The notes: generated by a model from the letters alone, not told the origin. Positions 6,229 through 23,142 are shown, counted from the stretch's first letter. The stretch is DNA of 30,764 bases from a virus (IMGVR_UViG_3300014893_000002:1-30764); one strand, 5' to 3'. Numbers and translations are program-made.

Positions 6229-6546
6229 CTACAAAGGAATAAAACGATAAGGCTCCAGCAGAGAAGAAAAACCAAACGGGACTGGTGCCTTGCTGACATC
6301 TGAGGAATTTTCCCGGTTTTCGTACCAGTGCCCGACCAGCAACATGAGCGCCAGCAAAACATCATCAGCTATAAGCACCCCTTCAGGATCACCTTCCGGC
6401 ACCGTCTCCTCATAAAGCTTACGGTTGATAAAATTTTCTGCCTTGCGGCAGGCAGCCCGGAAATACAGCATCAGTAACTCATCATCAGTTGCATCATCTG
6501 TATCAATACGGCACTGCGCCCTGAGTTTTTCCACTATTGCTGCCAT
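6229..6546 (-). CDS. head-tail connector protein (gp6-like)
   Basis: About 105 aa starting MAAIVEKLRAQCRID..; gp6-like pattern, directly downstream of the major capsid gene. The track ORF extends upstream to 6726 and overlaps the capsid gene, which is unlikely. Confidence 0.65.
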   Translation of the reverse strand: MAAIVEKLRAQCRIDTDDATDDELLMLYFRAACRKAENFINRKLYEETVPEGDPEGVLIADDVLLALMLLVGHWYENRENSSDVSKAPVPFGFSSLLEPYRFIPL

Positions 6547-6580
6547 CAGAAACTCCTGCCCGCAACACTGTGCGGGCATA

Positions 6581-6603
6581 AAAAAACCGCGTCGGCGCGG
6601 TCT
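6581..6603 (-). terminator. intrinsic terminator downstream of major capsid gene 1
   Basis: Minus strand reads ACCGCG-CCGA-CGCGGT followed by a run of 7 U. Confidence 0.6.
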
Positions 6604-6622
6604 GTAACTGAACAACGAGTGG

Positions 6623-7840
6623 TTATTTGCCAGTGAGCGCCTTGATGGCTGCCACATCTTCCAGCACACAGTCAAAACGATGGAAAGCCAGAAATGCCAC
6701 CTGATCAAACTCAGCATAACGCTCAACCAGACGTTTCAGTTCCATATAAGTAACGCGGCGAATGATAAAGCGGTTGAAATCCCCCAGGAAAATGAATTTT
6801 TTTCCGGTACCAATCCCGTCAATAGCCTGATCAATAACATAAGGGATCCCCAGCACAGTAGCCGGCGTACCGCCTGCAATATCCGGCAGCCATAACGGGC
6901 GTTTCTGCCCATCCTCCATCTCTTCAATAGTCTGCAATGTGGCATCATTGAATGCCCAGCGGTATTTCGGCCCACCACGATATGCCGGATCAATGGCATG
7001 TTTCAGGGCATTCATTTCTTTCCAGGTGAAAGCGGCAGAGGCTGCAGTCTGGATGGTTCCCGTCACCGACGCTGCCAGCCCTTTTGGCTGTAACGGTGAT
7101 CCCGTTCCGGTCCCCTGAACCAGATATTTTGCCTCTCCACGACCAATACGCTGGGCAATACGGTTTGCCAGATAAGATTCAATATCCACCCCACTGTCCT
7201 GGAGCAGCTCATTGGACACACGAATTATTTTTGATGACAGCTTTTTAGCCCCCAGAATAGCGGTCCCGAACGTCACATCCTGTTCCGTTGCGGCTGTATT
7301 TTCCGCCAGCAGTTCGCCCTCTTCAGTCGTGCCATCAGACGTTGACCAGGTGATATCCTGCCCGGTTGATGTGGTCAGAAGTTGCGCCACACTGGCAATC
7401 CCGCCATAAGCCTTCATGGTGTCAATGATTTTGTTACGCATCTGCGTGGGCACCGTATATCCGCCCTGAGAATCCGTTGTTACACTCTGAGCCCGCAGTT
7501 CACGCATCAGATTACGCTCTTCAGCATTCAGTTCTGCAAATCCGGCACGCAGAAAACGGTTAAATGCCGCAGCGCGCTTCTCTTCCACCGCCTTTTTCCC
7601 GTTCTCCGCCTCATTATTCTGGCGCTCTTCCGGCCCGGACTCATCCACATATGCCTGATCCTGACGGCGCAACTCTTCTTCACGGGCGATTTGCTCATCC
7701 AGCGCATCCAGCTCAGCTTTCGCCCTGTTCCACTCTGCCCGTTGCTCATCAGTCCATGCGTTATCACCAATTTTTTCATGCAGTGCACGCATATCCTTTG
7801 CAATGGTGTTTCGTTTTTGCTTCATCTCATGAAGTTTCAT
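6623..7840 (-). CDS. major capsid protein, HK97 fold (head module 1)
   Basis: 405 aa with an N-terminal coiled-coil delta-like domain and a QGTGTGSPLQPKGL segment matching the HK97 NGDGTG..L.GL region. Confidence 0.9.
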   Translation of the reverse strand: MKLHEMKQKRNTIAKDMRALHEKIGDNAWTDEQRAEWNRAKAELDALDEQIAREEELRRQDQAYVDESGPEERQNNEAENGKKAVEEKRAAAFNRFLRAGFAELNAEERNLMRELRAQSVTTDSQGGYTVPTQMRNKIIDTMKAYGGIASVAQLLTTSTGQDITWSTSDGTTEEGELLAENTAATEQDVTFGTAILGAKKLSSKIIRVSNELLQDSGVDIESYLANRIAQRIGRGEAKYLVQGTGTGSPLQPKGLAASVTGTIQTAASAAFTWKEMNALKHAIDPAYRGGPKYRWAFNDATLQTIEEMEDGQKRPLWLPDIAGGTPATVLGIPYVIDQAIDGIGTGKKFIFLGDFNRFIIRRVTYMELKRLVERYAEFDQVAFLAFHRFDCVLEDVAAIKALTGK

Positions 7841-7854
7841 CGTCAGTAGTATCC

Positions 7855-8454
7855 TTATGCATTAAGAAGGGTCAAAAGACGCTCACGCGCCATTCGTTCG
7901 TTAACAGCTTTCTTCAGCGCACCACTCGCCCGCGCTTCCTGCCAGGCTTTCATTGAGCGGACACCAGAGTCTGCGTCCTGATAGGCCGGATATGTCACCG
8001 GGCTGACGTCATACAGACGAGAAATGCGCGTGATTTCCCGGATAACAATCCCCTCGTCGTCTTCATACCAGCTCTCTCCGTCACGGGCGACACGAAACGC
8101 GAACGAGGACTGATTAATGTCACCACGCAACATTGGAGACAGCACCAGGTCACAAATAGTCGGAGTATCCGGTGCAACAATGTCATAACGTAAACCGCGT
8201 TCATCCACCGACAATGACAACGTGCCGGCAGAACTTCGTCCGAGAATGAAATTAGGATCATGATTAAACAAGCCACGTACATCATCATTCAGTACATCAT
8301 CAAAAGCCCCCGGCTTGATGATTTCACGAAATCCCCACAGAGGTTCTGAACGACTGTTAAATACCGAGCCATACCCCAGAATGTGGGTCGGGGCATTATC
8401 ATATTGTTCCGCCCGCACCTCCCCGCTGTAACAGCGCGTTTCACGGTCATTCAT
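7855..8454 (-). CDS. prohead protease, HK97 gp4 family (head module 1)
   Basis: 199 aa with ..GYGSVFN.., ..KPGAFDD.. and ..PAY.. pattern typical of caudovirus prohead proteases; sits between portal and capsid genes. Confidence 0.85.
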   Translation of the reverse strand: MNDRETRCYSGEVRAEQYDNAPTHILGYGSVFNSRSEPLWGFREIIKPGAFDDVLNDDVRGLFNHDPNFILGRSSAGTLSLSVDERGLRYDIVAPDTPTICDLVLSPMLRGDINQSSFAFRVARDGESWYEDDEGIVIREITRISRLYDVSPVTYPAYQDADSGVRSMKAWQEARASGALKKAVNERMARERLLTLLNA

Positions 8455-9673
8455 CGTTCTTTTCCTCTTTGCCTTTCGTATCTTTAAAGTTATTCAACGG
8501 ATTTGCTGCATTTACGCTGACCAGCATTTCATCCAGACCGTCAACCGGGTTCATATCCTCAAATGCCCTGGCTTCATTCCGACTCATCCAGCCATCTGTA
8601 ATGGCAAAGTGATAGAACTGCGCACGCTCCTGTGGGGTCCCACGGAGCAACCCCGTGAGGTTGAAACGAACGTAATACCCGGCAGCCCGTTCTGTACGGG
8701 TAAACAGGCGACGGTTAAGCTCCTGCTCCCAGTTCGCAACCCAGGGCATCATCGTGTAGCGAACAAACTGAATCGCCTGCTGCGTAATATTCGAAAATGT
8801 GGCTTTTTCCAGGTCATTAATCATGTGCGCCGGGACATTAAAAATCCCGGCAATCATCGACCGGTTCAGCTTGGTCATATCAATGATCTGAGCATCCACC
8901 GGAGAAACTGTCAGAGCGCGGTAATCCAGTTGCGCAGGCAGCAACATGGTTTTATTTTCCTGGCTGCGAAGCGCTGTCACCGCCCGCTGCCACATATTTT
9001 TAAGCCTGCCCCAGCTTTGTTCGTTCAGTTCATTTTTCACAGAAATAATACCGGCAGGACGGGCATTACCGTTAAAAAAGGCGCTGGTATACTGCTGGCC
9101 ACTCATTCCCATACCAATGGTTTCAGCATGCTGCATGATCGGGCTCAGTCCCATTTTCTGATTGTTTCCCAGCGCCCTGATATGGATCATGTCGTCCGGA
9201 CTTACCGCAAATGCACCCTCTTCGTTATACACCCCGTAAGTATGACGCCCACCGGTGTTAAGTAACGTGGTTTCCCATGGCATACAGCATTCAAGGCTGG
9301 TAACCTCTCCACGACGATTACGTTTTACCCACGTATAACCATTGCCCCACCCCAGCACATGACGCTGCTTCAGTTCCCGCCACTTATAGCTGGTCTGCCA
9401 GGCATTAGGTTCATCATGAACGAGCCAGAACAACGGATGATCGCGTGCCGGCTGAACATGCTCATTCGTTTTTCGCATCACATGCAGGGGCATCTGAGCC
9501 ACACTGGATGAAATAACATAAATACAGGCATAGACAGCAGCCAGCTTCATGGATGTTTCCGGACTGACATACACATCCCGGGCAAAAATATTATCCGTCT
9601 CAGCGGCCTCTCCGGTTACCGGAACCGAGGGATTTTCCAGAGGCTCACTGCGAAACAGAGCATCAAGAAGCAT
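8447..9673 (-). CDS. portal protein, HK97 family (head module 1)
   Basis: 408 aa with typical portal C-terminal motifs (..AGIFNVP.., ..PWVANWEQELNRRL..); GAGGAG RBS 5 nt upstream of the ATG. Confidence 0.9.
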   Translation of the reverse strand: MLLDALFRSEPLENPSVPVTGEAAETDNIFARDVYVSPETSMKLAAVYACIYVISSSVAQMPLHVMRKTNEHVQPARDHPLFWLVHDEPNAWQTSYKWRELKQRHVLGWGNGYTWVKRNRRGEVTSLECCMPWETTLLNTGGRHTYGVYNEEGAFAVSPDDMIHIRALGNNQKMGLSPIMQHAETIGMGMSGQQYTSAFFNGNARPAGIISVKNELNEQSWGRLKNMWQRAVTALRSQENKTMLLPAQLDYRALTVSPVDAQIIDMTKLNRSMIAGIFNVPAHMINDLEKATFSNITQQAIQFVRYTMMPWVANWEQELNRRLFTRTERAAGYYVRFNLTGLLRGTPQERAQFYHFAITDGWMSRNEARAFEDMNPVDGLDEMLVSVNAANPLNNFKDTKGKEEKNDE

Positions 9674-9820: not shown

Positions 9821-10584
9821 TCACAGAATTAACAGGTCCTCATCAGGATCAAGCGTGGACAGAAAGTCATTCACGCCCCCTCCATTTACCAGAAAGCGGC
9901 TCATGGCTGTAAAAAGCGCAACAGGGCCGTCGATTTTGGCTTCCGGCGTGGATTTATTCGGGAAGATGTTGTCGTTTTTGTCCGGTTTTACAGTAACGTT
10001 AGACATCATCCAGTTCATGACCGGATGATTGCTGTGATGGAAACGCCCGGCATAAACCAGTGATTCCGTTTCCTTCATGGCCTCTGACAGATTGCGGACC
10101 GTCTGCGGAACCTCCACCAGCGGTATCCCTTCTTCAGCCAGTGCCAGGCTGAACTGCATTGCGCTCCACGGGTCAAATCCCAGTTCCCTGAGGTTTTCAC
10201 CGCCAATCCATTCCAGTAAGTCACTTTTTATCTGAGCATGATCGATAACATCACCATCCGTCAGGATGAGCTTATCCATCTCCGCCCACTTCCGGTAAAG
10301 TTCTGCCTGCTGCCGCGAGCATCGTTCCAGCCGTCCTTCCGGAAGCCAGAATTTAAAATCAGCATGAACATGTCCGTTATCGGTTCGCCAGAGTTTTGCC
10401 GCCGCACAGATATCAATCTTATGAGCAAGGTCGACGCCGACCCACATGGGATATGTTTTCAGCTCATGTTGTGGAGCAATGTATTCGCACTTCTCCCACT
10501 TAATCATATCCATCCAGGCAGATTCGGCAGTGACCCACACATTCATGTGTTTGGTAAGAATATTTCAAGTTTTTTAAAATCACC
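9821..10584 (-). pseudogene. terminase large subunit remnant (C-terminal nuclease-domain portion only)
   Basis: The 241 aa ORF aligns residue-by-residue to the C-terminal part of the intact TerL at 11074-12741, from about residue 330 to its end (e.g. LTKHMNVW vs LTKRFNIW, WVGVDLAHKIDI vs YAGLDLSSTSDI). No N-terminal ATPase domain; upstream frames are broken by stops and a frameshift, but weak homology can be followed to about 10584. Confidence 0.7.
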
Positions 10585-10615
10585 TGTATATCAATCATTT
10601 AACATGAAAAAACAG
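10585..10615 (+). other. candidate Mu-type terminal sequence (element end, putative transposase-binding site)
   Basis: TGTATATCAATCATTTAACATGAAAAAACAG begins with 5'-TG and resembles, from memory, the phage Mu left-end terminus (TGTATTGATTCACTTGAAGTACGAAAAAAAC). It lies exactly where TerL homology stops. Confidence 0.4.
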
Positions 10616-11073: not shown

Positions 11074-12741
11074 TTACACACCATCAAACGCCGCAAGCCG
11101 CTCTTTGTGGCTGTCGCTCATATCAAATGCAAATTCCTCATGCTCTGCCTGGAATGTGCCAAACGCCATCAGCGCCGCAACGCTCGGGTCTATCTTGTTG
11201 GATGATTTTTTCTTGTTCGGCTTGATATTGGCGTTCGCGTCACTCTGCATCACAACATTACACATTGACCAGGCCAGCACCGGATCGCCACGATGCACAA
11301 TCACCTTCCGGTTAACAAAAACTTCGAACGATTTCGCCGCCGGACTGAAACGAAGGTATGTTTGCGGGAACGGCTCCACCTCAAATCCTGCCCCCTGTAG
11401 CTGCGTCCTCAGGTGCGTAGCGTTCCATGTATCGAAGCCCACCAGCCTGATATTGAAATTCTCTGCATCCGCCATGATGTCATCACGGATACGGTCATAA
11501 TCAATGCAGTCACCCGGTGTTGTGCGTATCCAGCCCGCCTTTACCCACTGGCGATAGATGGCGCGGTTTTTATTAGCGGGGTTCTGTAGCTGAAATTCCG
11601 GCAGATAGTGACGGGAAACCAGCATAATCTTTTTACCGACCGGAAAGGCATAGCACACGCTGGAAATATCGCTGGTTGATGATAAGTCCAGCCCTGCGTA
11701 GCACTCCTGCCCGTATAAATCCGCCTCCGCGAACGTTCCGGCGCACTCCGCCCATGCACCATTACCCATCCACGGCGTAGCCCCCTGACACCAGATATTG
11801 AATCGCTTGGTGAGCATTTCCACCCACTGCGACGGAATACCCCGCGCTTTCTGGATGGTTGAGGCCAGTTTTTCACGATCGACGGAAACATCGATATTGG
11901 GATTCGCCTTTATCCACATCGCCGGATCGTCAACCTCGCTTTCATCATCCAGCTCGTAAATCAGCACGAACATGGATTCGTTCACCTCTTCACCATCCAG
12001 TATCTGGCAGCAATAGTCGTAGTGTTGTTTACAGGCTGAAACAACGTTGCTCCCCGATGTGGTGATGGCAAATAATAACCCCTCCGGACGCGCCCCCATT
12101 CCCAGTTCAAGCGCGGAATAAACCCCGTTGTCAGGGTGCAGGTGATATTCATCCACAATGGCAAGACTCGGGTTCTTCCCCTCAATGGTTGCCGCTTTTG
12201 CTGCCAGTGGCTTTAACAGGCTGTTGGTTTTCGGGTGTATCACCTTGTTCGCCTGAATATTTACCCGCTTTCGTAACGGTCGGGATAAAAGGCACATCTG
12301 ACGCGCATCATCAAACACGATCCGCGCCTGATCACGACTCACGGCGGCGGTGTAAATATCCTGCTGCCCGTTTTCCATAACCAGAAACCAGTTAGCCAGG
12401 ATAGCGGCGACCGTGGATTTGGCATTTTTTCGCGGTACTTCAATGAATGCGCTGGTGTATTTGCGCCGTCCGGTGGCCTTAACCTTAAAGCCCAGGATGC
12501 ACGCAAAGGCGAACTGCTGCCACGGCTCCAGTTCAATGGGGCTACCGTGCATTGCGCCTTTTACGTGCGGGCACACCCTGGAAAAGGCAATAAACCGCTC
12601 CACGACCTCCGAATCGAACATATAAAGGGGGTTTTCAAGGTCAGAAAAATACCGTTTAACGGTCTGTTTCAGTCGTTTACAGGCCGTAATTTTGCCGTTT
12701 TTTACGCCTTCTGCGTACTCATGCCAGGCGGTCAAGCTCAT
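11074..12741 (-). CDS. terL: terminase large subunit (intact)
   Basis: 555 aa with an N-terminal ATPase region and a C-terminal nuclease-type region (..AGLDLSSTSDISS.., ..VGFDTWNA..); start overlaps the TerS 3' end. Confidence 0.9.
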   Translation of the reverse strand: MSLTAWHEYAEGVKNGKITACKRLKQTVKRYFSDLENPLYMFDSEVVERFIAFSRVCPHVKGAMHGSPIELEPWQQFAFACILGFKVKATGRRKYTSAFIEVPRKNAKSTVAAILANWFLVMENGQQDIYTAAVSRDQARIVFDDARQMCLLSRPLRKRVNIQANKVIHPKTNSLLKPLAAKAATIEGKNPSLAIVDEYHLHPDNGVYSALELGMGARPEGLLFAITTSGSNVVSACKQHYDYCCQILDGEEVNESMFVLIYELDDESEVDDPAMWIKANPNIDVSVDREKLASTIQKARGIPSQWVEMLTKRFNIWCQGATPWMGNGAWAECAGTFAEADLYGQECYAGLDLSSTSDISSVCYAFPVGKKIMLVSRHYLPEFQLQNPANKNRAIYRQWVKAGWIRTTPGDCIDYDRIRDDIMADAENFNIRLVGFDTWNATHLRTQLQGAGFEVEPFPQTYLRFSPAAKSFEVFVNRKVIVHRGDPVLAWSMCNVVMQSDANANIKPNKKKSSNKIDPSVAALMAFGTFQAEHEEFAFDMSDSHKERLAAFDGV

Positions 12742-13075
12742 CCTCTTCCTCTGTTTCCGGTGGATTTCTGCGACGGCTTACCGGGTCAAAACCCAGCAAA
12801 GAAGCCATTTTGATCATTATTCTTTCCGCGTCAGCCTTTGCGCTCAGGGCCGGGTTTCTGCTCTCGCTGCCCTGACTGTTAACAATGCTGAACCCGCGCG
12901 TCGCAAGGTCTTCGACGGCTTTGCGGTATATGGAGTAGTTAACGCAATACAGTTCCAGATTGCTCCAGTCGGCGGGGGTAAGGTCTTCCCGCCCGGAAAG
13001 CTGCCGCGATTTTTCCTTCCACTGCTTTACCGCGATTTCATCCAGGTAAGCGGGGGCTTTTGGTGGTCTTGCCAT
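12719..13075 (-). CDS. terS: terminase small subunit, P27 family
   Basis: Starts MARPPKAPAYL.., the characteristic N-terminus of P27-family small terminases. The track ORF runs from 13216, but that region is more likely non-coding. Confidence 0.8.
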   Translation of the reverse strand: MARPPKAPAYLDEIAVKQWKEKSRQLSGREDLTPADWSNLELYCVNYSIYRKAVEDLATRGFSIVNSQGSESRNPALSAKADAERIMIKMASLLGFDPVSRRRNPPETEEEDELDRLA

Positions 13076-13363
13076 GTTCTTTTTTCGCCCAATTATTTTC
13101 AAAAAAATTCCCGTGCACAAAAATTTGAGGAGGCGGTCGGTGTCCGGCAGGGACGGTTTCGTCCTGAAAACCTCCCCCACCCCCTCTGACGACTTCACCA
13201 GCGATTGCGAAAACATTCCATGACCTCGCGGTCACGGTCGGTTAATCGCTTCGCTGTGGTGCGTTCTGTGCGTCCTATCCTGTTGGCTTTGTGCCCTGTC
13301 TCCTGTGTCTTCCATAAGTCACGCTGCCTTATCAGTCCACGTATCAGCCTGTTTTGCTCCTGT

Positions 13364-13804
13364 TCAGTCATCATCGCCATACATCCAGTCGTTACGATGT
13401 GCCGCCCGTTCTTCCTGCTCGCGATACATGCCCGCCTTACGGTTCGCTTTCGTGGCTGGATCTTCCCGTGTCGTCTTACGGTTGTGGCACGTCTGGCACA
13501 ATGCCTGGTGGTTCCACTCAGGCCAGAAGAGAACATCACCGCCGCCATTGATGGGGATAATGTGATCCACCACAAAGGCTGGCGTATAAATACCCTCAGC
13601 CAGACAACGCACACATAACGGATTTTTTTTCAGGTACAGGGCGCGATATTTGTCCCACTGTCGGGAATACCCGCGCGCGCGGCGGTGTCCCCGTCTGGCA
13701 TCCTCTGCACGCCATGCGGCCCGCCTGTGTTCTTCACACTTGCCGGACTTCACGCGCTTATTACAGCCCGGCTCTGTGCATCGCCTTAATGGTTGCCACG
13801 GCAT
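13364..13804 (-). CDS. HNH endonuclease (packaging-associated)
   Basis: Cys-rich N-terminus and HNH core (..VVDHIIPINGGG..NHQALCQTCHNRKT..); located immediately upstream of TerS as in HK97-type cos phages. Confidence 0.85.
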   Translation of the reverse strand: MPWQPLRRCTEPGCNKRVKSGKCEEHRRAAWRAEDARRGHRRARGYSRQWDKYRALYLKKNPLCVRCLAEGIYTPAFVVDHIIPINGGGDVLFWPEWNHQALCQTCHNRKTTREDPATKANRKAGMYREQEERAAHRNDWMYGDDD

Positions 13805-14100
13805 CAGTACACCCCCACATCACGATAAACCGACCAGAGCGCGGAAATCGTCAGGGGAATTTCTTTTGTATCTGTATCGCCAAGCGTTGTCCGGTACTCG
13901 TACAGTTGCGAGATGTACATCAGGCAGCCAATTTTTATTGCAGGGGTAAATTCCAGGCCATCATCAAAACGCCTACCAATATGTTTCTGACATACCTCCA
14001 GCGCCGCGCTTATGTATGCCTGAATCAGTGTGTCTTCTGTGTTACCGTCTATGCGGCAGTGAAGTTTGGCTTCTTCCAGGGTTATTTTTTCTGCTGTCAT
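13804..14100 (-). CDS. head-tail connector protein (gp6-like), head module 2
   Basis: 98 aa; paralog of 6229-6546 (..L.E.K.H.RID..D.LI..YI.AA..). ATGA overlap with the HNH start. Confidence 0.65.
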   Translation of the reverse strand: MTAEKITLEEAKLHCRIDGNTEDTLIQAYISAALEVCQKHIGRRFDDGLEFTPAIKIGCLMYISQLYEYRTTLGDTDTKEIPLTISALWSVYRDVGVY

Positions 14101-14435
14101 TTTTCTGTACCCACCTTTGCCAGAATTTCCAGCCGGGTTCTTTTCGCATCAGGTAAGGGGATCCCGATGATATTAAGCGTGCTCCCGGCAAAAGCACCGG
14201 TAAGCACTTTCAGTCGACTGGCGGCGGATATGTCGCCACGATAGCGAACCCATACCCGAATCGTTGCAGGTGCGGTTTCTGCGCCTGCGGTCAGTAATTC
14301 CCGTCCGCTGATCCCCTTGACCTCTGCCCAGATGGTTTCCCCTTCCGTCCATATCTGCCGGATCGCTCCTGACGGCAGGCGCTGCGTGATAAATGTCATA
14401 ATCGTCACCCGGTCCCGCATATTTCCGGCTATCAT
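14097..14435 (-). CDS. head-tail adaptor / head closure protein (SPP1 gp16-like), head module 2
   Basis: 112 aa; shares VWAEVKGISGRE, SRLKVLTGAF and TRLEIL with the copy at 5882-6220, roughly 60 percent identity by eye. Confidence 0.75.
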   Translation of the reverse strand: MIAGNMRDRVTIMTFITQRLPSGAIRQIWTEGETIWAEVKGISGRELLTAGAETAPATIRVWVRYRGDISAASRLKVLTGAFAGSTLNIIGIPLPDAKRTRLEILAKVGTEK

Positions 14436-15655
14436 TCGTCACCGCCCTGACTGTTCTTGCTGATTGTCACTTCCTGCTTCCATGCCTGGCTGAACTCGTC
14501 GCCACCTTCACGCGGCGGCATTCCCTCACGCTCACGGGCTTCGTTCGGATTCATGATCCCGTTCTTAATCCCTTTCTCATACGTGGCGTAACGTTCGGTA
14601 GGGGTGGCGCGTAATAAATCAGCTGAATCAAACTCAACCAGATAACGGGTACCGGGTACGGGAGAAGCCACCAGCAAAGCGGCCTTGATTTGCTGTTCGA
14701 AGTTCGCCAGCCACGGGCGCATTGTCATGGTCAGAAACGCGCGGCTTGCCTCGCTGAAATTGCTGTAGGTGCTGTTGCTGTATTCCTGCAGAAAAATAGG
14801 CGATACGTTGAACATCCGGGCGATGTCTTCAATGGAGAAGCGACGGGAGGCCAGCCATTCCGCATCCTGGTTACTCATTCCCAGTTGCTTGTAATCCATG
14901 CCCCCTTCAAGGATTGGCGTTTTTCCGGCATTTTTCGCCCCCTTGTAGCGTTCCAGAGCATCCAATGCCTGTTTACCTTTCACGCCGTCCAGCCATTCGC
15001 CTGACGTGATAATCCCTGCCGCCATCATGCCATCTTTCATAATGCTGGCTCCGTGGCGCTGTTGAGCAAGGCCAAGCCCAAGTGCCTCACGGCAAATCGT
15101 GACAGGGGAGCGCCCCAGAAAGCCATCATCCGAGGCATAGCGGAGATGCAGAACTTCTTCCTGTAAATACGTGCGCACCGTTCCTGTATAGGGTTCGGTG
15201 ATGGTATAGCGGTATTTGTGTGCGCCTGTGCGTTCCGGTACAACACAACCCGGTGCATAAGGATGAAGTGATTTTGGCTGACCGTCCCGCCCCCACTCAA
15301 TAACCGCATAGGCGTTACCGTTCAGCAGGCAGTGACGCATCATTGTGCGTTTAAACTGGTAAGGTGTCTGGCACGAATTAGGCTGCTCATTCAGCAGAAT
15401 ATCTACCGGATGACTGTCCAGCCATTCCCGCGCCTCCCTGCCCTTGTCATTACGTACCAGATACAGATAACAAGGCATCGTGGCCACCGCCTCAGCGATG
15501 ACAGAAACCGCGTTCATCACTGCAGGCAATGATTCAGCCGTCCCGGCAGAAACATATTCTCCGGATCCGGTATTCGGTACGCCGGCCAGCGCCAGAAAAT
15601 CATCAATGGACAGGTTACGTTGCTCACTTTTTTTACGACTAAAAGGCCACCACAT
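14432..15655 (-). CDS. portal protein, HK97 family (head module 2)
   Basis: HK97-type portal motifs (..LLNGNAY.., ..GMSNQDAEWLASRRFSIEDIARMFNVSP.., ..NPNEAREREGMPP..GGDE). Start placed at ATG 15655, just after the protease stop; the track start at 15745 overlaps the protease gene. Confidence 0.85.
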   Translation of the reverse strand: MWWPFSRKKSEQRNLSIDDFLALAGVPNTGSGEYVSAGTAESLPAVMNAVSVIAEAVATMPCYLYLVRNDKGREAREWLDSHPVDILLNEQPNSCQTPYQFKRTMMRHCLLNGNAYAVIEWGRDGQPKSLHPYAPGCVVPERTGAHKYRYTITEPYTGTVRTYLQEEVLHLRYASDDGFLGRSPVTICREALGLGLAQQRHGASIMKDGMMAAGIITSGEWLDGVKGKQALDALERYKGAKNAGKTPILEGGMDYKQLGMSNQDAEWLASRRFSIEDIARMFNVSPIFLQEYSNSTYSNFSEASRAFLTMTMRPWLANFEQQIKAALLVASPVPGTRYLVEFDSADLLRATPTERYATYEKGIKNGIMNPNEAREREGMPPREGGDEFSQAWKQEVTISKNSQGGDE

Positions 15656-15656
15656 A

Positions 15657-16217
15657 TCACAACCCCGCCAGCTCTGCCCAGCGATGACGATTATTTCCTG
15701 CCGGGCGTAATTCAGGGTGCAGTGCAAACAACGAACGGTGGGCAATCTCCACGCCAGATTCTGGATAAGCAGGCATCGACGTTATCGTGATTTCACGGAG
15801 TTCTGCGGCGGTAACAGTGCGCAGATACGGTTTTTGCGCGATATTCCACTCCTCGCATAATGCGCGAAAGCCAAAGCTCATTCCTGTAATGTCGCCCCGC
15901 TCCACCAGCGTAAGCACATCTTTCCCAAGCTGGGTATCCGGCGGTGTCAGTTCAAAACGTAACCCGGTGTTATCCTCAGTCAGTACCAGAGTGCCGGATT
16001 TGGTACGCCCCAGCAGTCGGGTACAGTCATGCTCATACAGGCAGCGCACATCATTACCCGCAGCCAGATAGTCAGCAAAAGCCCCCGGCGTGAACTGTTC
16101 GCGGAACTCATCCCAGATAATTTCTGAAAGGCTGTTCCAGCGAACGGCATACCCCACCAGCTTTTTATTGCTGGCGGTCAGTTCAGATGTGCGGATTTCA
16201 AAATCGGTGTTTTTCAT
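15657..16217 (-). CDS. prohead protease, HK97 gp4 family (head module 2)
   Basis: 186 aa with ..GYAVRWNS.., ..TPGAF.., ..GMSFGF.. and ..MPAYPESG.. pattern; GGAG RBS. Confidence 0.85.
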   Translation of the reverse strand: MKNTDFEIRTSELTASNKKLVGYAVRWNSLSEIIWDEFREQFTPGAFADYLAAGNDVRCLYEHDCTRLLGRTKSGTLVLTEDNTGLRFELTPPDTQLGKDVLTLVERGDITGMSFGFRALCEEWNIAQKPYLRTVTAAELREITITSMPAYPESGVEIAHRSLFALHPELRPAGNNRHRWAELAGL

Positions 16218-16234
16218 CGGTGTACTCCATAAAG

Positions 16235-16260
16235 CTGAAAAAGGAGGCCGCAGCCTCCTC
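16235..16260 (-). terminator. intrinsic terminator or attenuator between capsid gene 2 and protease gene 2
   Basis: Minus strand reads AGGAGGC-TGCG-GCCTCCT followed by UUUUU. Confidence 0.55.
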
Positions 16261-16271
16261 CTTACTCATGA

Positions 16272-17441
16272 CTAGCCAGCTTTCATTTCCAGAATTTTGA
16301 TGGCGTTTGAATCCACCACACCACCGCCCAGATATTTATCCGTGTGGACCTTGTAGAATCCGGGTTCAGTAATGTTGTCCGGTCGGGTGCGAATACCCGT
16401 TACATGATCAACGATGAAATAACCACGACTGAAATCACCAACCGCGAGCGGTGCTTTTCCTGCGCCGATGTCCGGCATGGACTCCAGGCAGTAAACAGGA
16501 CGACCAAGCAACATATCCGGCGCACCTTCTTTAAGGCTGTCGCGCCAGATATAATCGCCGTTCTCGTTTTTCAGCTTCTGTAGTGTCCCTGCCGTGCCCG
16601 AGTTCATCACCCAGACGGCATTTTTGCGGTATTTCGCTTTCAGCTTGTAGAGAATGTCGATCAGTTCGTCCGCTGTAATGGCGGTTCCACTTGCCGCTAC
16701 CATTTTTTCAATGGTGCCAAAAGCGCGGGTTTTGTCACTGGTCGCTGCACGGGTGTAAGCCATGAAGCCTTTCGGCTTGCCGTTACCGTCGCCATTAACA
16801 AAATCATCCTCTTCGGTGCTGGCGAACGTGTCGGCAATTTCGGAGGATAACCAGCCCAGAATATCCACCTCTGAAAAATCCAGAATTTCCTGCGTGGTTT
16901 TCGGGTAGGCGTAGATAGGATTCAACTTGATGGTTACGCGTTCAATTTTCGGGGTGTTGGTTTCGCTGCGCGCGCTGCCTTCTGTGCCTCGTCCTACAGT
17001 TGCGCCGCCAGTGGAAACCAGTTTCTGAAACTCATTTGATTTTGCGGTCTTCACGGTCGCAATCACGCGCATAACACTGTCATCCTGTAGCTGGCGCATG
17101 ACTTCGCGATCAAGCTCAGGAATTACGGTATATCCGCCATCCCTGCCGCTGTCAGTGCTGGTGGACAGTGATCGCACATCTCCGGTTACGATGTAGTTAC
17201 GCAATTCATCAGATGATAATTTCCGGATACCCGTTCCTGGCTTGCTGCGTTCTTCATCATCCACAGATTCGAGGCGGGAGATTTCTGTGTCGAGGGAATC
17301 GGCTTTTGCACGCAGTTCATCAAACTGTTTGCCCTCGTCATCGTTCAGGCTGCGGTTTTCACTGTCGGCTTTTTCCAGCAGAGATCGCATCTGGTTTTTC
17401 AGGGCGGTTTTTTGCTGGCGGAGTTCGATTAATTTCTTCAT
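16272..17441 (-). CDS. major capsid protein, HK97 fold (head module 2)
   Basis: 389 aa with an N-terminal coiled-coil delta-like domain and the ..DFVNGDGNGKPKGF.. segment matching the HK97 NGDGTG motif. Confidence 0.85.
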   Translation of the reverse strand: MKKLIELRQQKTALKNQMRSLLEKADSENRSLNDDEGKQFDELRAKADSLDTEISRLESVDDEERSKPGTGIRKLSSDELRNYIVTGDVRSLSTSTDSGRDGGYTVIPELDREVMRQLQDDSVMRVIATVKTAKSNEFQKLVSTGGATVGRGTEGSARSETNTPKIERVTIKLNPIYAYPKTTQEILDFSEVDILGWLSSEIADTFASTEEDDFVNGDGNGKPKGFMAYTRAATSDKTRAFGTIEKMVAASGTAITADELIDILYKLKAKYRKNAVWVMNSGTAGTLQKLKNENGDYIWRDSLKEGAPDMLLGRPVYCLESMPDIGAGKAPLAVGDFSRGYFIVDHVTGIRTRPDNITEPGFYKVHTDKYLGGGVVDSNAIKILEMKAG

Positions 17442-18767: not shown

Positions 18768-18943
18768 AACATCAGCCCAACGTGCCGCTGCTCTCCGGTA
18801 CAGCTGAAGGGACGTAAGATAAATGAATGGTGATTCGTGAGATAATTTCGAACGGGAGTGGGTTAAAACGAATGCTACCGAATAATTTTATGAAATTGTT
18901 TTGCTGTATGTGAAACGGTAGCAGTTCACAAAAAACAGAGAAT

Positions 18944-19144
18944 ATGAGTGGTAAAATTTCTAATCCGTGTTCCGTGAATGGAGAAATATTGCCCATGCCC
19001 GATAAAAATAGCAACCCATCTGACTTTTCTGAAGATATGAAAGGATGCGTTACCTTTGAGTCAGAACGTTATGGACCATCAGGCGACTCATCAGATAACC
19101 GTTCTTCTCAGTCTGATGACGATGCACCGCCACCACGGGACTAA
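18944..19144 (+). CDS. small acidic Ser/Asp-rich hypothetical protein
   Basis: 66 aa ORF (possibly shorter from an internal Met) ending ..DSSDNRSSQSDDDAPPPRD; convergent with the membrane protein gene. Coding status uncertain. Confidence 0.25.
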   Translation: MSGKISNPCSVNGEILPMPDKNSNPSDFSEDMKGCVTFESERYGPSGDSSDNRSSQSDDDAPPPRD

Positions 19145-19785
19145 TCTTTCTGCCGTGCGCTAATGGCTTTATTTCTGGTTCGTCTGATCCTCACCATGGC
19201 AATCTGATCTGCAGGGATATAGGTTGCCATCGCTCCCCAGCTTTTACTTTCAACATCTTTTTCAATCCATTCATCGCGCCCCGGTTTCTTTTCATGAGTG
19301 ACATACATCACTATGTCTTTTTCCACTCCTAACACAAAAGAACCGCTGGCCTGGCCTTCAAATTTCCCCGGATTTTCAGAAAGCAGCACAGTACCATTCT
19401 TCAGATAGACATACGCCTCGCTGATATAGTATCCATGTTGATCAAACATACGCATCCAGGCAGAGGGGGTATCATCAGACCATGATATATCCTTATTTCT
19501 GAGGAATCTGTACATCCATTTACGCCCATATTTTCTCCATAATGCAGCGTATGCAAAAGCGCAAAGAAGTGTTGGAGGTGTCGCCAGCCACGAATTCAGA
19601 CCTGCCCACATAACAGCCTGGTAAACCATCATTGACAGCAAACCAAAAATCAGCGTCGAAAACGTCACCTCAATGGGTTTGTGATGGTTCTTCAGCCCCA
19701 CGTTCGCAATAAAATAGCCGATATAACCACTGGTGAGCGTCACCAGCGTTGCCCATGGCAGATTCAGCAAGGATGCATCAAACAT
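19141..19785 (-). CDS. integral membrane protein of unknown function
   Basis: 214 aa with several predicted N-terminal transmembrane helices and a soluble C-terminal domain; GGAGG RBS. Separated from the Mor-side genes by a terminator. Confidence 0.6.
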   Translation of the reverse strand: MFDASLLNLPWATLVTLTSGYIGYFIANVGLKNHHKPIEVTFSTLIFGLLSMMVYQAVMWAGLNSWLATPPTLLCAFAYAALWRKYGRKWMYRFLRNKDISWSDDTPSAWMRMFDQHGYYISEAYVYLKNGTVLLSENPGKFEGQASGSFVLGVEKDIVMYVTHEKKPGRDEWIEKDVESKSWGAMATYIPADQIAMVRIRRTRNKAISARQKD

Positions 19786-19817
19786 ATTTCCTCCGGTGAT
19801 ATGTTTTTCTGCCAGAA

Positions 19818-19853
19818 TAAAAAAAGCGCAACAGGTTATCCATTGCGCTTTTC
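19818..19853. terminator. bidirectional intrinsic terminator
   Basis: AAAAGCGCAA, an 11 nt loop, then TTGCGCTTTT; perfect 10 bp complement flanked by A and T runs. Confidence 0.5.
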
Positions 19854-19879
19854 ATAAACCGGGAATTTATTGACGTTCG

Positions 19880-20116
19880 TTAACACTTTGGTGGCGGTGG
19901 TGGTGGGTTACGTAAAACTTTCCCGTAATACAAAACACAATTTTCATCAGGCCCGATATGCAGGCGCGAGTTGTCAATCAGCCTGTCGCATTCCCGGAGA
20001 ACATATCTCGCCTCAGCAGAAGTCAGACCGTCAAAAAAATGCCGGATAATTTCCATCGCCATATCTGCATGGTCTGCCTTCTTCAGGGGGGCGCTGTTGG
20101 GGGTTTTATAGCGCAT
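19880..20116 (-). CDS. hypothetical protein (Pro-rich C-terminus)
   Basis: 78 aa from ATG 20116 with GAGG RBS; ends ..RNPPPPPPKC; immediately downstream of mor. Confidence 0.45.
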   Translation of the reverse strand: MRYKTPNSAPLKKADHADMAMEIIRHFFDGLTSAEARYVLRECDRLIDNSRLHIGPDENCVLYYGKVLRNPPPPPPKC

Positions 20117-20133
20117 TATCACCTCGCTTTTGA

Positions 20134-20520
20134 TTAATCCCGGCTGTCATCCGGTTCATCATCGTCTTCGAATAACTGTCCCTGCAACCGGCTGATTTCT
20201 TCCTTTCTTACGCGCTTCACCAGGTTGTAAATCCAGGGAACTGAAACCCTGAATCTGCGGGACAGTTCGTGGTGGTTACGTCCGTTAAACGCCTCATAGA
20301 TTTCACGGTCACGCTGGCTTATCTTCCATCTCATCCCCATAGGAAAATAAACGTTTTGCCCGCCCCAGACCTGCATCATGCGGTTCGCGACGGCCTGACC
20401 AATCTGGTCGGCAATTGCGGGCTCAATATCAATAATCTCGCGAACGGTCTCAGAGGTATGCTGTGCCAGTTCCACCAGGAGTTCCGGCCCTTTACTTCGA
20501 AACTGATTCAGGTCGCTCAT
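20134..20520 (-). CDS. mor: Mor-family transcriptional activator (phage Mu middle operon regulator-like)
   Basis: C-terminal region ..GGQNVYFPMG..REIYEAFNGRNHHELSRRFRVSVPWIYNLVKRVRK matches the Mu Mor/C family pattern (GGQ.VYIP.G .. FNGRN..EL...Y.V). Acidic C-terminal tail. Confidence 0.8.
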   Translation of the reverse strand: MSDLNQFRSKGPELLVELAQHTSETVREIIDIEPAIADQIGQAVANRMMQVWGGQNVYFPMGMRWKISQRDREIYEAFNGRNHHELSRRFRVSVPWIYNLVKRVRKEEISRLQGQLFEDDDEPDDSRD

Positions 20521-20944
20521 GTTTTACTCCCGCAGCTCTGCGCTGCCACTTCTTCAGTTTCTCAATAACACTGCTTGCCTGTTCAGTATTGAGCCAGCGC
20601 AGGGCGCTGATGCCCGTTTCCCGCTTGATCCACCGCGCTAATGCATTTTCTGAACGGTCACGAACAATGCCGGCAGCAGCCATTTCAAGCCATAGCGCAC
20701 GAATTTTCCTGGACTGCGGATGGTTATCCAGCGGTAAACCGGAGCTGGCTTTTCTGGCAGGCTTAACGCGAAAGCCTTTCCTTTTCATGGATTCCAGCAC
20801 GCAGTTTAGTTGTGTGGTATCCATTCCTTTGGTTGAGGCTTTACCGGTCAGCCCCTGTAACATCTGGCGGTAGGTGTCTTCATCCATACCCAGTTCATTA
20901 CGGGCAATATGAATGAGCTGGATAAGACGTTGTTTAGTCATCAT
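20492..20944 (-). CDS. gemA: GemA / Mu gp16-like protein (DUF1018)
   Basis: MTKQRLIQLIHIARNELGMDEDTYRQMLQGLTGKAS.. is typical of Mu gp16/GemA-like proteins; AAGGAG RBS upstream of ATG 20944. Confidence 0.65.
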   Translation of the reverse strand: MMTKQRLIQLIHIARNELGMDEDTYRQMLQGLTGKASTKGMDTTQLNCVLESMKRKGFRVKPARKASSGLPLDNHPQSRKIRALWLEMAAAGIVRDRSENALARWIKRETGISALRWLNTEQASSVIEKLKKWQRRAAGVKHERPESVSK

Positions 20945-21149
20945 CGTTGCTCCTTTTACCTGCGCCACCGATATAATCGACATATAAAGGAAGCGCCACA
21001 GGCCAGCACAGGAACATCACCGACCAGCTAATCCAGTAGCCGGCACCACTGTAACGTGAATAAAACCCTGAACGGCGGTGCAGTTCAGCAGTACACCAAC
21101 CGACAAAACAATACCAGAACAGGGCACATACAACAGATTCAGCCGTCAT
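20934..21149 (-). CDS. small membrane protein
   Basis: About 71 aa from ATG 21149, hydrophobic (..VVCALFWYCFVGW.., ..WSVMFLCWPVALPLY..). Confidence 0.4.
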   Translation of the reverse strand: MTAESVVCALFWYCFVGWCTAELHRRSGFYSRYSGAGYWISWSVMFLCWPVALPLYVDYIGGAGKRSNDDD

Positions 21150-21369
21150 TCTGAATATCCCCCCAACTGATATGAATATTACGGGCAGCAATGACAGGGT
21201 CGTTATTCCACCATGCACCTGACATGTATTTTTCAACCTGTTCGCGTCCGGCAATAACACCAATTGTGATCCCCGGCCTGACGTTCTTAAAAAAGGCGCG
21301 GGCAAAAAGGTATCTGGCAGATATTCGGCAGGCTTTTAATTTCCGGCTGTTACCTGATAGCGTAATCAT
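21139..21369 (-). CDS. hypothetical protein
   Basis: 76 aa; ATG overlaps the stop of the upstream gene (ATGA), consistent with an operon. Confidence 0.4.
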   Translation of the reverse strand: MITLSGNSRKLKACRISARYLFARAFFKNVRPGITIGVIAGREQVEKYMSGAWWNNDPVIAARNIHISWGDIQNDG

Positions 21370-22049
21370 CTGGCCTCCAGTTTCTGTTGTTCCTGCCCAC
21401 TGACCGGGCGGTGCAGTCTGACGTTCTGCCCTTCACGAAACCCCGCATAGCGCGAGGCGTCGCCATTGCGGCTTCTTCCCGGTTTACGCGCCCTGGTGGT
21501 TTGCGTTTGCGGGTATTTATGTTCCAGCCACTGTTGCATCAGTTCACGCTCATCATCGGTCAGGGCAAAGGACTGTATTTCACTGATAACGGCCAGTACC
21601 CAGCCTTCAGCAAACTGGTCTCCACGGCTGGTACGGGTGGCGTTTTTTATTCTTTTGTTCTGTGCGCTGATATACTGCTGACGCGCCTTTTTCAGCTGGC
21701 GGACCAGCACTTCCCAGGTGTACGCAGCCAGTGCCGCTCGTTCCCGGTTACCGTAGAACCCCACAGACGGATGCGTGCCGGGGTGAATGATGGAGTTAAC
21801 ACCAAATGCCTCGCGGATGATGTTCATCAGGCCCAGCATGTAGCGCGGTGGACGGAGACTGCCTGTCGGCCAGTAATGACTGATGGTTTCATCAATATCA
21901 CTCATAGCAATGTCGGAATGTGTGATGCCGTGAACATCCATCAGTTTACGGGCTCGGCGCAGTGCCAGAGCGGCCTCGTGCGGGTTGCCGGATGCGGCCA
22001 GCGCCAGCAACTTTTTCAGTTTCTCAATGTGTTTATTCTGGTCTGTCAT
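21366..22049 (-). CDS. DUF2786-like phage protein
   Basis: N-terminus MTDQNKHIEKLKKLLALAASGNPHEAALALRRA.. resembles DUF2786-type proteins common in prophage early regions; start set at ATG 22049. Confidence 0.5.
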   Translation of the reverse strand: MTDQNKHIEKLKKLLALAASGNPHEAALALRRARKLMDVHGITHSDIAMSDIDETISHYWPTGSLRPPRYMLGLMNIIREAFGVNSIIHPGTHPSVGFYGNRERAALAAYTWEVLVRQLKKARQQYISAQNKRIKNATRTSRGDQFAEGWVLAVISEIQSFALTDDERELMQQWLEHKYPQTQTTRARKPGRSRNGDASRYAGFREGQNVRLHRPVSGQEQQKLEAR

Positions 22050-22261: not shown

Positions 22262-22275
22262 TGAATGCCTCCCGG

Positions 22276-22572: not shown

Positions 22573-22581
22573 GCCGCGCCC

Positions 22582-23045: not shown

Positions 23046-23142
23046 AATTTAATTCTCCTCTGTTTCCGGCGTGCAGAAGCCCACGGCGCTGACGCCGGAA
23101 TAAAAAAGAAAATGTTTTTATTAAATAATTAACGTGGTGTGT

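What the first reader, a model, noticed from the sequence alone, without database searches (positions are those of the whole stretch)
14097..14435. Tail-proximal adaptor is strongly conserved between the two head modules while the other head proteins have diverged
Seen in sequence: the 112 aa adaptor at 14097-14435 and its counterpart at 5882-6220 share long identical stretches (VWAEVKGISGRE, SRLKVLTGAF, TRLEIL), whereas the two capsids, portals, proteases and gp6-like connectors are far less similar. Inference: the adaptor is the head component that docks onto the tail, so this pattern fits selection on module 2 capsids to join the tail type encoded at 23-5439, supporting the tail-piracy hypothesis.
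Basis: partly seen in the sequence, partly recalled or inferred. Interest (0 to 1): 0.55.

Follow-up and report, generated by a model that had tools for sequence, protein, structure and literature searches.

The report
Satellite head-closure protein matches helper tail
A phage satellite that builds its own capsids but has no tail genes sits inside a prophage's terminase gene, and the one head protein it shares closely with that prophage is the small ring that plugs the filled head and docks it to the tail; this fits the published tail-stealing lifestyle, so it is a clear example rather than a new mechanism.

Summary
The two 112-aa proteins (14097-14435 and 5882-6220, both on the minus strand) are 61% identical. 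The gp6-like, capsid, portal and protease pairs are 24, 25, 30 and 38% identical.

Both proteins are HK97 gp7 / SPP1 gp16-type head-closure proteins (Pfam PF05521). Module 2 is the packaging operon of a capsid-forming PICI. It is embedded in the terL gene of the HK97-like prophage that carries module 1 and the tail. Its att flank matches the published A_Terminase_1_246 helper-embedded PICI group exactly.

The conservation is not specific to this pair. The shared motifs are invariant across the family. Across phages, the head-closure gene is inherited with the tail-end genes and not with the head:
- HK97 and HK022 have 98-100% identical heads but 27% identical head-closure proteins and different tails.
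- Module 1 and HK97 have 22-28% identical heads but 65% identical head-closure proteins and similar tails.

Among satellites, the gene is a single-gene cassette with three states: gp7-type, a type about 40% identical, or absent. Synonymous sites are saturated, so recent gene conversion is excluded.

The tail-matching reading is supported, but it was already shown experimentally (He et al. 2025). In this window the satellite is also disrupted by a Mu-like prophage.

The parts
14097..14435 (-). Island (module 2) head-closure protein Hc1, HK97 gp7 / SPP1 gp16 family, 112 aa. Its start overlaps the portal stop and its stop overlaps the gp6-like start (ATGA in both cases).
   Evidence: Translation. 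Pfam PF05521, 65 bits. 2KZ4 (SF1141), E 1.7e-34. AF2 model with TM 0.78 to SPP1 gp16 in 7Z4W. Junction sequences.
5882..6220 (-). Helper prophage (module 1) head-closure protein Hc1, 112 aa, 61% identical to the island copy.
   Evidence: RefSeq annotates the identical gene as 'phage head closure protein' WP_001147814.
13804..14100 (-). Island gp6-like head-tail connector (Ad1). It lies after Hc1, which is the reverse of the phage gene order.
   Evidence: Pfam PF05135. 24% identical to the module 1 counterpart.
14432..17441 (-). Island capsid (16272-17441), HK97-type prohead protease (15657-16217) and portal (14432-15655).
   Evidence: Annotation of the 97-98% identical island in E. coli strain 10.
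11074..13804 (-). Island HNH endonuclease (13364-13804), P27-family TerS (12719-13075/13216) and TerL (11074-12741). These complete the canonical cf-PICI packaging order.
   Evidence: Published gene order as quoted.
10551..10609 (-). Island end and att flank. The core TTACCAA (10551-10557) joins the island to the helper terL.
   Evidence: Homology to an intact terL breaks at about 10557-10564. A 14-bp overlap links the two terL halves in L003. Exact 59-nt match to the att flank of the HE-PICI group A_Terminase_1_246.
9821..10564 (-). C-terminal (nuclease-domain) fragment of the helper prophage terL, split by the island.
   Evidence: Pfam TerL_nuclease, profile positions 64-283 only. The gene is intact in E. 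coli FY26 (585 aa). RefSeq annotates it as a partial pseudogene in strains 10, O177:H21 and 042.
6229..9673 (-). Helper head module: portal (8447-9673), protease (7855-8454), capsid (6623-7840), gp6-like Ad1 (6229-6546).
   Evidence: This whole block is replaced by an unrelated head module in E. coli O177:H21, with the breakpoint at window 6231.
23..5885 (-). Helper neck and tail module: HK97-gp10-like Ne1 (5436-5885), gp17-like tail terminator/completion Tc1 (5095-5439), Ig-domain major tail protein (4331-5086), chaperones (3643-4331), tape measure (357-3602), gpM-like minor tail protein (23-409).
   Evidence: Pfam. RefSeq annotation. 80%, 51% and 72% identical to the HK97 counterparts.
18806..30764 (.). 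Mu-like transposable prophage (end plus early region: mor, gam, MuB-like ExeA ATPase, DDE transposase, DUF3102, ner-like and repressor-side genes). It is inserted in the island's PerC-like gene and separates the packaging module from the island's integrase and replication half.
   Evidence: Homology to intact islands stops at 18804/18805. The sequence from 18806 starts TGAAG.... The same end lies next to many different chromosomal genes in other E. coli. Early-gene annotation.

Best explanation
The 112-aa protein at 14097-14435 is the head-closure (stopper) protein of a capsid-forming phage satellite (cf-PICI). The satellite is embedded in the terL gene of an HK97-like lambdoid prophage.

In SPP1- and HK97-type necks this protein forms the ring below the gp6-like adaptor. 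It plugs the DNA-filled head and presents the surface onto which the tail's terminator ring docks. The satellite has no tail genes, so its heads must join helper-made tails. It therefore carries a head-closure gene of the same family (HK97 gp7 type) that phages with this tail module carry.

In evolutionary terms, the head-closure gene belongs to the neck/tail module and not to the head module. It is exchanged as a unit or as a single-gene cassette. So the satellite copy shares a much closer ancestry with the helper's copy (61%) than the capsid, portal, protease and gp6-like genes do (24-38%). Continued need to fit the tail-end proteins keeps it within that family.

Shown here: the identities, the family and fold, the satellite identity and integration site, the co-inheritance with tail genes, and the cassette behaviour.

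Inferred: physical docking of this protein on the gp17-like terminator encoded at 5095-5439, and actual use of this prophage's tails.
For: - Identities and dN.
- Family and fold.
[quoted passage not shown] Relatives 97-98% identical carry integrase, Bro-N, Icd, DUF927 primase, SSB and PerC genes and no tail or lysis genes, inside a split terL. The att flank matches HE-PICI group A_Terminase_1_246 exactly.
- Co-inheritance with the tail, across loci: in 25 phage loci from different genera the adaptor (45-72% to module 1) is always followed by gp10-like (54-79%), gp17-like (43-59%) and major tail (42-79%) genes, while the portal is 25-31% in 22 of the 23 loci where one was detected and the capsid is mostly undetectable. 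Spearman correlation of adaptor identity with gp10-like is 0.71, with gp17-like 0.61, with portal -0.01.
- Co-inheritance with the tail, named phages: module 1 against HK97 gives heads 22-31% but Hc1 65%, Ne1 80%, Tc1 51%, MTP 72%. HK97 against HK022 gives heads 98-100% but Hc1 27%, Ne1 29%, Tc1 20%, MTP 25%, and HK022 keeps a 78-aa remnant (64 aa aligned at 97%) of the HK97-type gene.
- A natural head swap in the helper breaks exactly at the gp6/Hc1 boundary, window 6231.
- Cassette behaviour: satellite backbones 92-99% identical in nucleotides drop to 49-72% only across the adaptor gene. Two adaptor classes, plus loci with no detected adaptor, occur on one backbone.
- Not an intrinsically slow protein: within satellites it is among the least conserved packaging genes (69-73% against 81-88% for portal and gp6-like). 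It also has the highest pN/pS among close relatives (0.18-0.35 against 0-0.11).
- Experiment in the literature: swapping cf-PICI adaptor plus connector genes changes which phage tails are used (He et al. 2025 preprint).
Against: - Module 1 is not the closest phage relative of the island protein. Klebsiella phages reach 66-68%, and module 1 ranks about sixth of 26. Nothing points to adaptation to this particular helper.
- A related island with the other adaptor class is embedded in the terL of a prophage whose own Phage_HCP protein is only about 28% identical to the island's. Resident helper and satellite adaptor therefore need not match.
- The most conserved motif (KGISGRE...) lies at the start of the low-confidence loop of the model. 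From memory of SPP1 gp16, this loop corresponds to the channel plug. Part of the conservation may therefore reflect DNA gating rather than tail docking.
- Synonymous saturation prevents dating the split.
- No complex structure or joining assay was available.
- In this genome the island is split by a Mu-like prophage, so present-day function is doubtful.
Confidence: 0.8

Rival explanations
1. The head-closure family simply evolves slowly everywhere, for example because of its DNA-gating plug. On this view the high identity says nothing about tails.
For: 25 invariant and 18 nearly invariant columns across 31 homologues, including the quoted motifs. Phage-phage and phage-satellite mean identities are alike, at 67% and 65%. 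The conserved GISGRE segment borders the flexible loop of the model.
Against: HK97 and HK022 have 98-100% identical heads but only 27% identical functional Hc1 proteins. Satellites with 92-99% identical flanks carry adaptors that are about 40% identical. Within satellites the adaptor is among the least conserved packaging genes and has the highest pN/pS.
Confidence: 0.08
2. Recent gene conversion or homologous recombination between the resident helper prophage and the embedded island homogenised the two adaptor genes.
For: The two genes lie 8 kb apart in the same orientation in one composite element. blastn finds a 188-bp stretch of 68.6% identity.
Against: Nucleotide identity is only 60%, third-position identity 38% and pS 0.68, so synonymous sites are saturated. 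There is no high-identity patch. Other phages are closer than module 1.
Confidence: 0.02
3. Specific co-adaptation: the island's adaptor has been tuned to the tail of exactly this prophage lineage, because the island lives inside it.
For: The helper-embedded arrangement recurs with the same tail module in strains 10, O177:H21 and 042. This holds even where the helper's head module differs.
Against: Module 1 is not the nearest homologue. The same island backbone occurs without any adaptor in the same kind of helper. Islands L186 and L194 sit in a prophage with an unrelated Hc1. He et al. report that inducing helpers often do not supply compatible tails (section heading quoted).
Confidence: 0.15

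Closest known systems
Capsid-forming PICIs (cf-PICIs such as EcCIEDL933, EcCIGN02175, KpCIDSM30104), as described in He et al. 2025 (bioRxiv 10.1101/2025.02.11.637232) and Moura de Sousa et al. 2023 (PMC10085698)
   Same: [quoted passage not shown] The island has no tail or lysis genes. Its relatives carry integrase, regulation and replication zones. The adaptor region is the variable cassette, and it is shown experimentally to set tail specificity.
   Different: Here the island is embedded in the helper's terL rather than at a chromosomal site, and it is cut by a Mu-like prophage. In my sample the cassette is the adaptor gene alone, whereas the paper treats adaptor plus connector. Adaptor-less variants outnumber adaptor-bearing ones.
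Helper-embedded PICIs, site group A:Terminase_1:246 (Tommasini, Mageeney and Williams 2023, PMC10111431)
   Same: The island is integrated in, and co-oriented with, the terL late gene of a lambdoid helper. The 59-nt att flank with core TTACCAA is identical. Size in relatives is about 15 kb.
   Different: That paper does not discuss head-closure or adaptor similarity to the helper. Only the distal (late-zone) part of the island is in the window.
HK97 gp7 / SPP1 gp16 head-closure (stopper, Hc1) proteins; NMR structure 2KZ4 (Shigella flexneri SF1141)
   Same: Pfam PF05521. 58% identical to HK97 gp7. Hit to 2KZ4 at E 1.7e-34. The beta-barrel fold superposes on gp16 within the SPP1 connector complex 7Z4W (TM 0.78).
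   Different: It is encoded by a satellite without a tail, and its gene lies between portal and gp6-like rather than between gp6-like and gp10-like.
The HK97 / HK022 mosaic joint at gene 7
   Same: It shows the same modular rule: heads are 98-100% identical, the Hc1, Ne1, Tc1 and tail genes differ, and a remnant of the old gp7 is left at the joint.
   Different: That is a phage-phage exchange, not satellite-helper. That this joint is a classic example of lambdoid mosaicism is from my own memory and was not checked in the literature.

Membership tests
Phage_HCP (PF05521) / HK97 gp7 - SPP1 gp16 head-closure proteins | Sequence match above the Pfam gathering score over the full domain | tested here: met
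   65 bits (island) and 76.6 bits (helper) against a cut-off of 25, covering profile positions 1-105 of 106. 58% identical to HK97 gp7.
Phage_HCP (PF05521) / HK97 gp7 - SPP1 gp16 head-closure proteins | gp16-type beta-barrel fold | tested here: met
   AF2 model with mean pLDDT 84.7. Foldseek: 2KZ4 TM 0.83; SPP1 gp16 in 7Z4W TM 0.78; several other phage neck complexes.
Phage_HCP (PF05521) / HK97 gp7 - SPP1 gp16 head-closure proteins | Forms the ring between the gp6/gp15-type adaptor and the tail terminator, and plugs the channel | not testable with these tools
   Inferred from homology to SPP1 gp16. No multimer modelling or particle structure was available.
Capsid-forming PICI (cf-PICI) | [quoted passage not shown] | tested here: met
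   Window 17441 down to 11074 on the minus strand. Published definition quoted.
Capsid-forming PICI (cf-PICI) | Integrase plus regulation and replication modules; size about 10-18 kb | tested here: inconclusive
   These are absent from the window because Mu-like DNA starts at 18806. They are present in islands 97-98% identical in E. coli strains 10, O177:H21 and 042, where the island spans about 15 kb between the terL halves.
Capsid-forming PICI (cf-PICI) | No tail module and no lysis genes inside the element | tested here: met
   None between the att site and the capsid gene in the window. None in the complete relatives.
Capsid-forming PICI (cf-PICI) | Makes its own small capsids and transfers using helper tails | not testable with these tools
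   Requires induction and transfer experiments.
Helper-embedded PICI, group A:Terminase_1:246 | [quoted passage not shown] | tested here: met
   terL is intact in FY26 and split in the window and in strains 10, O177:H21 and 042. All genes are on the minus strand.
Helper-embedded PICI, group A:Terminase_1:246 | att sequence of the group | tested here: met
   The 59-nt att flank taken from an off-target member of the A_246 group (off-A_246.Eco2384.15), ending in the TTACCAA core listed for on-target A_Terminase_1_246 islands in the paper's supplement, matches window 10551-10609 with 0 mismatches.
Helper-embedded PICI, group A:Terminase_1:246 | Integrase in the HE-PICI integrase clade | not tested
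   The integrase lies outside the window. No phylogeny was made for the relatives' integrases.

The most novel reading that the evidence does not exclude
The head-closure slot of these satellites is a freely exchangeable single-gene cassette with three states: HK97-gp7 type, a type about 40% identical, or empty.

The empty state is the commonest in E. coli. The adaptor-less junction occurs in 143 complete genomes and the adaptor-bearing junction in 24. The flanking genes of adaptor-less islands are still under purifying selection.

Adaptor-less satellites would then have to recruit the helper's own head-closure protein. If so, the boundary of what is stolen is not 'tails only' but 'tail plus head-closure ring', and the satellite's and helper's head-closure proteins are functionally interchangeable on a foreign gp6-like adaptor.
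Probability: 0.35. Interest if true: 0.5.

Novelty: already known. Interest (0 to 1): 0.27.

Why it matters
This locus is a compact natural illustration of how a capsid-forming satellite stays compatible with stolen tails. Everything in its head has diverged from the helper except the one ring that meets the tail.

The practical value is predictive. The family of the satellite's head-closure gene (HK97 gp7 type here, 61% to module 1 and 58% to HK97, but 34% to HK022) should indicate which tail types, and therefore which host ranges, the satellite can use.

The mechanism itself is already published, so the finding mainly confirms it and adds the helper-side comparison. The adaptor-less variants are the only part that could extend current understanding.

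Tried and rejected
- Dating the adaptor split against the other head genes by dS failed, because all pairs are saturated.
- A profile search of PDB sequences found only 2KZ4, with no neck complex at the sequence level. Residue-level mapping of conserved positions onto the tail-facing surface was therefore not possible. The fold search gives complexes but no coordinates.
- I tried to test whether the island adaptor class matches the resident helper's Hc1/Tc1 class, using IMG/VR contigs anchored on the island TerL with 10-kb flanks. Most contigs end 1.5-3 kb after TerL. Only L186 and L194 were informative, and they showed a mismatch.
- Recent gene conversion was considered and rejected.
- 'Slow-evolving family' was considered and rejected as the main cause.
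- No complete E. coli genome in the collection carries the island/Mu junction of the window, so the source genome and the fate of the other island half could not be determined.
- Pfam gave nothing for the accessory ORFs at 17728-18234, 18270-18557 and 18944-19144.

Full report
**1. The observation**

All relevant genes are on the minus strand.

Pairwise local alignments of the five paralogue pairs give these identities:

| Pair | Identity |
|---|---|
| adaptor | 61.1% |
| gp6-like | 23.7% |
| capsid | 25.0% |
| portal | 29.8% |
| protease | 38.2% |

A sixth pair, the helper terL fragment against the island TerL, is 30% identical.

- Nei-Gojobori counts give dN 0.38 for the adaptor and 0.66-0.89 for the other pairs.
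- pS is 0.62-0.79 in every pair. The adaptor pair has 60% nucleotide identity and 38% third-position identity.
It reflects protein-level conservation over an old divergence, not a recent DNA exchange.

**2. What the two modules are**

*The prophage.*
- Window 1-10564 is 100% identical to a lambdoid prophage with HK97-type heads that is found in many E. coli.
- In strain FY26 this prophage runs HNH, TerS, an intact 585-aa TerL, portal, protease, capsid, connector, head closure, HK97-gp10-like, gp17-like, major tail and so on.
- In the window its terL is cut. Only the C-terminal nuclease part remains at 9821-10564.

*The island.*
- Window 10500-18805 is 97% identical to a segment of E. coli strain 10. 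There, a roughly 15-kb island lies between the two halves of the same terL.
- That island carries integrase, two HTH regulators, Bro-N, Icd-like, DUF927 primase, SSB and PerC genes. These are followed by capsid, protease, portal, head closure, connector, HNH, TerS and TerL.
- The same arrangement occurs in strains O177:H21 and 042.
- This gene order is the published definition of a capsid-forming PICI packaging module (He et al. 2025).
- The arrangement inside a helper late gene is the helper-embedded PICI configuration of Tommasini et al. 2023.
- A 59-nt att flank from that paper's supplement, ending in the core TTACCAA given there for group A_Terminase_1_246, matches window 10551-10609 exactly.
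- Module 2 is therefore a tail-less satellite nested in the prophage that encodes module 1 and the tail.

**3. What the protein is**

- Both 112-aa proteins match Pfam Phage_HCP (PF05521). The neighbouring genes are gp6-like connectors. The helper genes downstream are HK97-gp10-like and gp17-type tail completion proteins.
- The island protein is 58% identical to HK97 gp7.
- It matches the NMR structure 2KZ4 (Shigella SF1141) at E 1.7e-34.
- An AlphaFold model built from 31 homologues (mean pLDDT 84.7) superposes on SPP1 gp16 within the gp6/gp15/gp16 connector complex 7Z4W (TM 0.78). It also matches neck components of several other phages and of SaPI1.
- By homology it is the head-closure or stopper ring, the last head-side component of the neck. 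The step from there to 'contacts the tail terminator' rests on established knowledge of SPP1 necks. It was not tested here.

**4. Why it is conserved when the rest is not**

Four lines of evidence show that this gene is inherited with the tail end and not with the head.

*(i) Survey of representative genomes.*
- Thirty-four loci from representative genomes were found with a profile of the family, and 31 could be classified as phage-type or island-type.
- The 25 phage-type loci always have the adaptor followed by gp10-like (54-79% to module 1), gp17-like (43-59%) and major tail (42-79%) genes.
- In those loci the adaptor is 45-72% identical to module 1. The portal is 25-31% in all but one of the loci where it was detected, and the capsid is usually undetectable.
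- Adaptor identity correlates with gp10-like identity (rho 0.71) and gp17-like identity (rho 0.61), but not with portal identity (rho -0.01). These points are not phylogenetically independent.

*(ii) Named phages give clean natural experiments.*

| Comparison | Head proteins | Hc1 | Ne1 | Tc1 | MTP |
|---|---|---|---|---|---|
| Module 1 vs HK97 | 22-31% | 65% | 80% | 51% | 72% |
| HK97 vs HK022 | 98-100% (including gp6) | 27% | 29% | 20% | 25% |

- HK022 still carries a 78-aa remnant of the HK97-type gene, 97% identical over the 64 aa that align.
- The island protein is 61%, 58% and 34% identical to the module 1, HK97 and HK022 proteins respectively. This predicts use of HK97-type tails.

*(iii) A head swap in the helper.* In E. 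coli O177:H21 the helper matches window 1747-6231 at 96% and again from 9879. The gp6-like, capsid, protease and portal block between these points is replaced. The breakpoint therefore lies exactly at the gp6/head-closure boundary.

*(iv) Cassette behaviour in satellites.*
- Satellite backbones that are 92-99% identical in nucleotides drop to 49-72% only across the 339-bp adaptor gene.
- Two adaptor classes occur on backbones whose TerL is at least 97% identical: 36 loci with an adaptor 69-72% identical to the island's and 30 loci with one 36-44% identical.

**5. Alternatives**

*A generally slow-evolving family.*
- This is contradicted by the HK97/HK022 comparison and by the cassette data.
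- Within satellites the adaptor is among the least conserved packaging genes (69-73%, against 81-88% for portal and gp6-like).
- It also has the highest pN/pS among close relatives (0.18-0.35 against 0-0.11). The counts are small.

*Recent gene conversion.* This is excluded by the saturation of synonymous sites.

*Fine co-adaptation to this specific helper.*
- The quoted motifs are invariant across the whole family.
- Klebsiella phages are closer to the island protein (66-68%).
- In an NJ tree the satellite adaptors form one clade nested among phage adaptors. The phage-satellite mean identity (65%) is about the same as the phage-phage mean (67%).
- In L186 and L194, an island with the other adaptor class sits in the terL of a prophage whose own Phage_HCP is only about 28% identical to the island's.
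- This agrees with the report by He et al. that inducing helpers often do not supply the tails.

**6. Relation to the literature**

- He et al. 2025 showed by swapping genes that cf-PICI adaptor and connector proteins determine which phage tails are used. They also showed that near-identical islands carry different versions of these genes.
- Moura de Sousa et al. 2023 treat the adaptor and connector as the components for attachment to hijacked tails.
- Tommasini et al. 2023 described islands embedded in terL.
- What I did not find in those texts:
  - an explicit comparison with the helper's own head-closure protein;
  - the demonstration that this gene co-segregates with Ne1/Tc1 across phages;
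  - the observation that the cassette can be the adaptor gene alone.

**7. Things seen on the way**

*Adaptor-less islands.*
- The E. coli 042 island lacks the adaptor gene. Window 14007-14474 is replaced by 122 bp, and the portal stop overlaps the gp6-like start.
- That adaptor-less junction occurs in 143 of 5,426 complete E. coli genomes. The adaptor-bearing junction occurs in 24.
- It also occurs in 40 of 80 IMG/VR loci.
- The packaging genes of these islands remain under purifying selection, with pN/pS 0-0.24 and no internal stops.
- These islands may recruit the helper's head-closure protein. That is an untested inference.

*A Mu-like prophage in the island.*
- Homology to intact islands stops at window 18804/18805, inside the PerC-like gene.
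- From 18806 (TGAAG...) a Mu-like transposable prophage begins.
- The same end abuts many different chromosomal genes in other E. coli.
- The window is therefore a triple nest: a Mu-like prophage inside a satellite inside a prophage. The satellite is probably no longer mobile in this genome.

**8. Verdict**

The mechanism is known. Interest is modest, and the adaptor-less variants are the only lead that might extend current understanding.

Noticed in passing
window 18805/18806 to 30764: A Mu-like transposable prophage (end TGAAG..., then a 66-aa ORF, a 214-aa membrane ORF, mor, gam, MuB-like ATPase, DDE transposase, DUF3102, ner-like and repressor-side genes) is inserted in the island's PerC-like gene. 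This makes a prophage inside a satellite inside a prophage. The same end lies next to many unrelated chromosomal genes in other E. coli, and no complete genome in the collection has this junction.
   Followed up: partly
window 14007-14474; L040 12507-12629: The E. coli 042 island is the same satellite without the head-closure gene: the portal stop overlaps the gp6-like start. This adaptor-less junction is in 143 complete E. coli genomes against 24 for the adaptor-bearing one, and in 40 of 80 IMG/VR loci. Its packaging genes are still under purifying selection.
   Followed up: partly
L092, L090, L087 positions 8233-8571: Satellite backbones 92-99% identical in nucleotides differ only in the 339-bp adaptor gene (49-72% identity). 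This is a single-gene cassette with two classes that are about 40% identical in protein. On backbones with TerL at least 97% identical, there are 36 loci of class i, 30 of class ii and 10 with no adaptor detected (some of those loci are truncated).
   Followed up: yes
window 6231-9879 compared with L039: In E. coli O177:H21 the helper prophage has an unrelated gp6-like/capsid/protease/portal block but the same head closure, tail and terL fragment (96-97% identity). The recombination breakpoint falls exactly at the gp6/head-closure boundary.
   Followed up: yes
L194 11700-19706 (also L186): An island with the class ii adaptor is followed by a 278-aa ORF with no Pfam match and a C-terminal TerL fragment. 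It therefore again appears to be embedded in a terL. That prophage's own Phage_HCP is only about 28% identical to the island adaptor, and its neck gene order differs.
   Followed up: partly
window 17674-18254 (ORF 17728-18234, plus strand): A 168-aa ORF with no Pfam match lies between the capsid gene and the PerC-like gene, on the opposite strand. The segment is absent from the otherwise 97% identical island of strain O177:H21. It looks like a variable accessory-gene slot of the kind proposed to hold defence genes.
   Followed up: partly
window 13804-14435 compared with 5882-6546: Gene order is inverted between satellite and phage. In the island the head-closure gene precedes the gp6-like gene and is translationally coupled to the portal. 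In phages the order is gp6-like, head closure, gp10-like.
   Followed up: no
L122 (HK022) 5545-6309: HK022 carries a 78-aa remnant of the HK97-type gp7 (97% identical over the 64 aa that align), then gp8, then a complete but unrelated head-closure gene that comes with its own tail module.
   Followed up: yes
L001 (E. coli ST131 strain 2822) 18716-49105: In the related Mu-like prophage, the early operon (ner-like to mor) and the late operon (holin, heads, contractile tail) point away from each other, on either side of the repressor region. This is unlike Mu, where they are co-directional.
   Followed up: no
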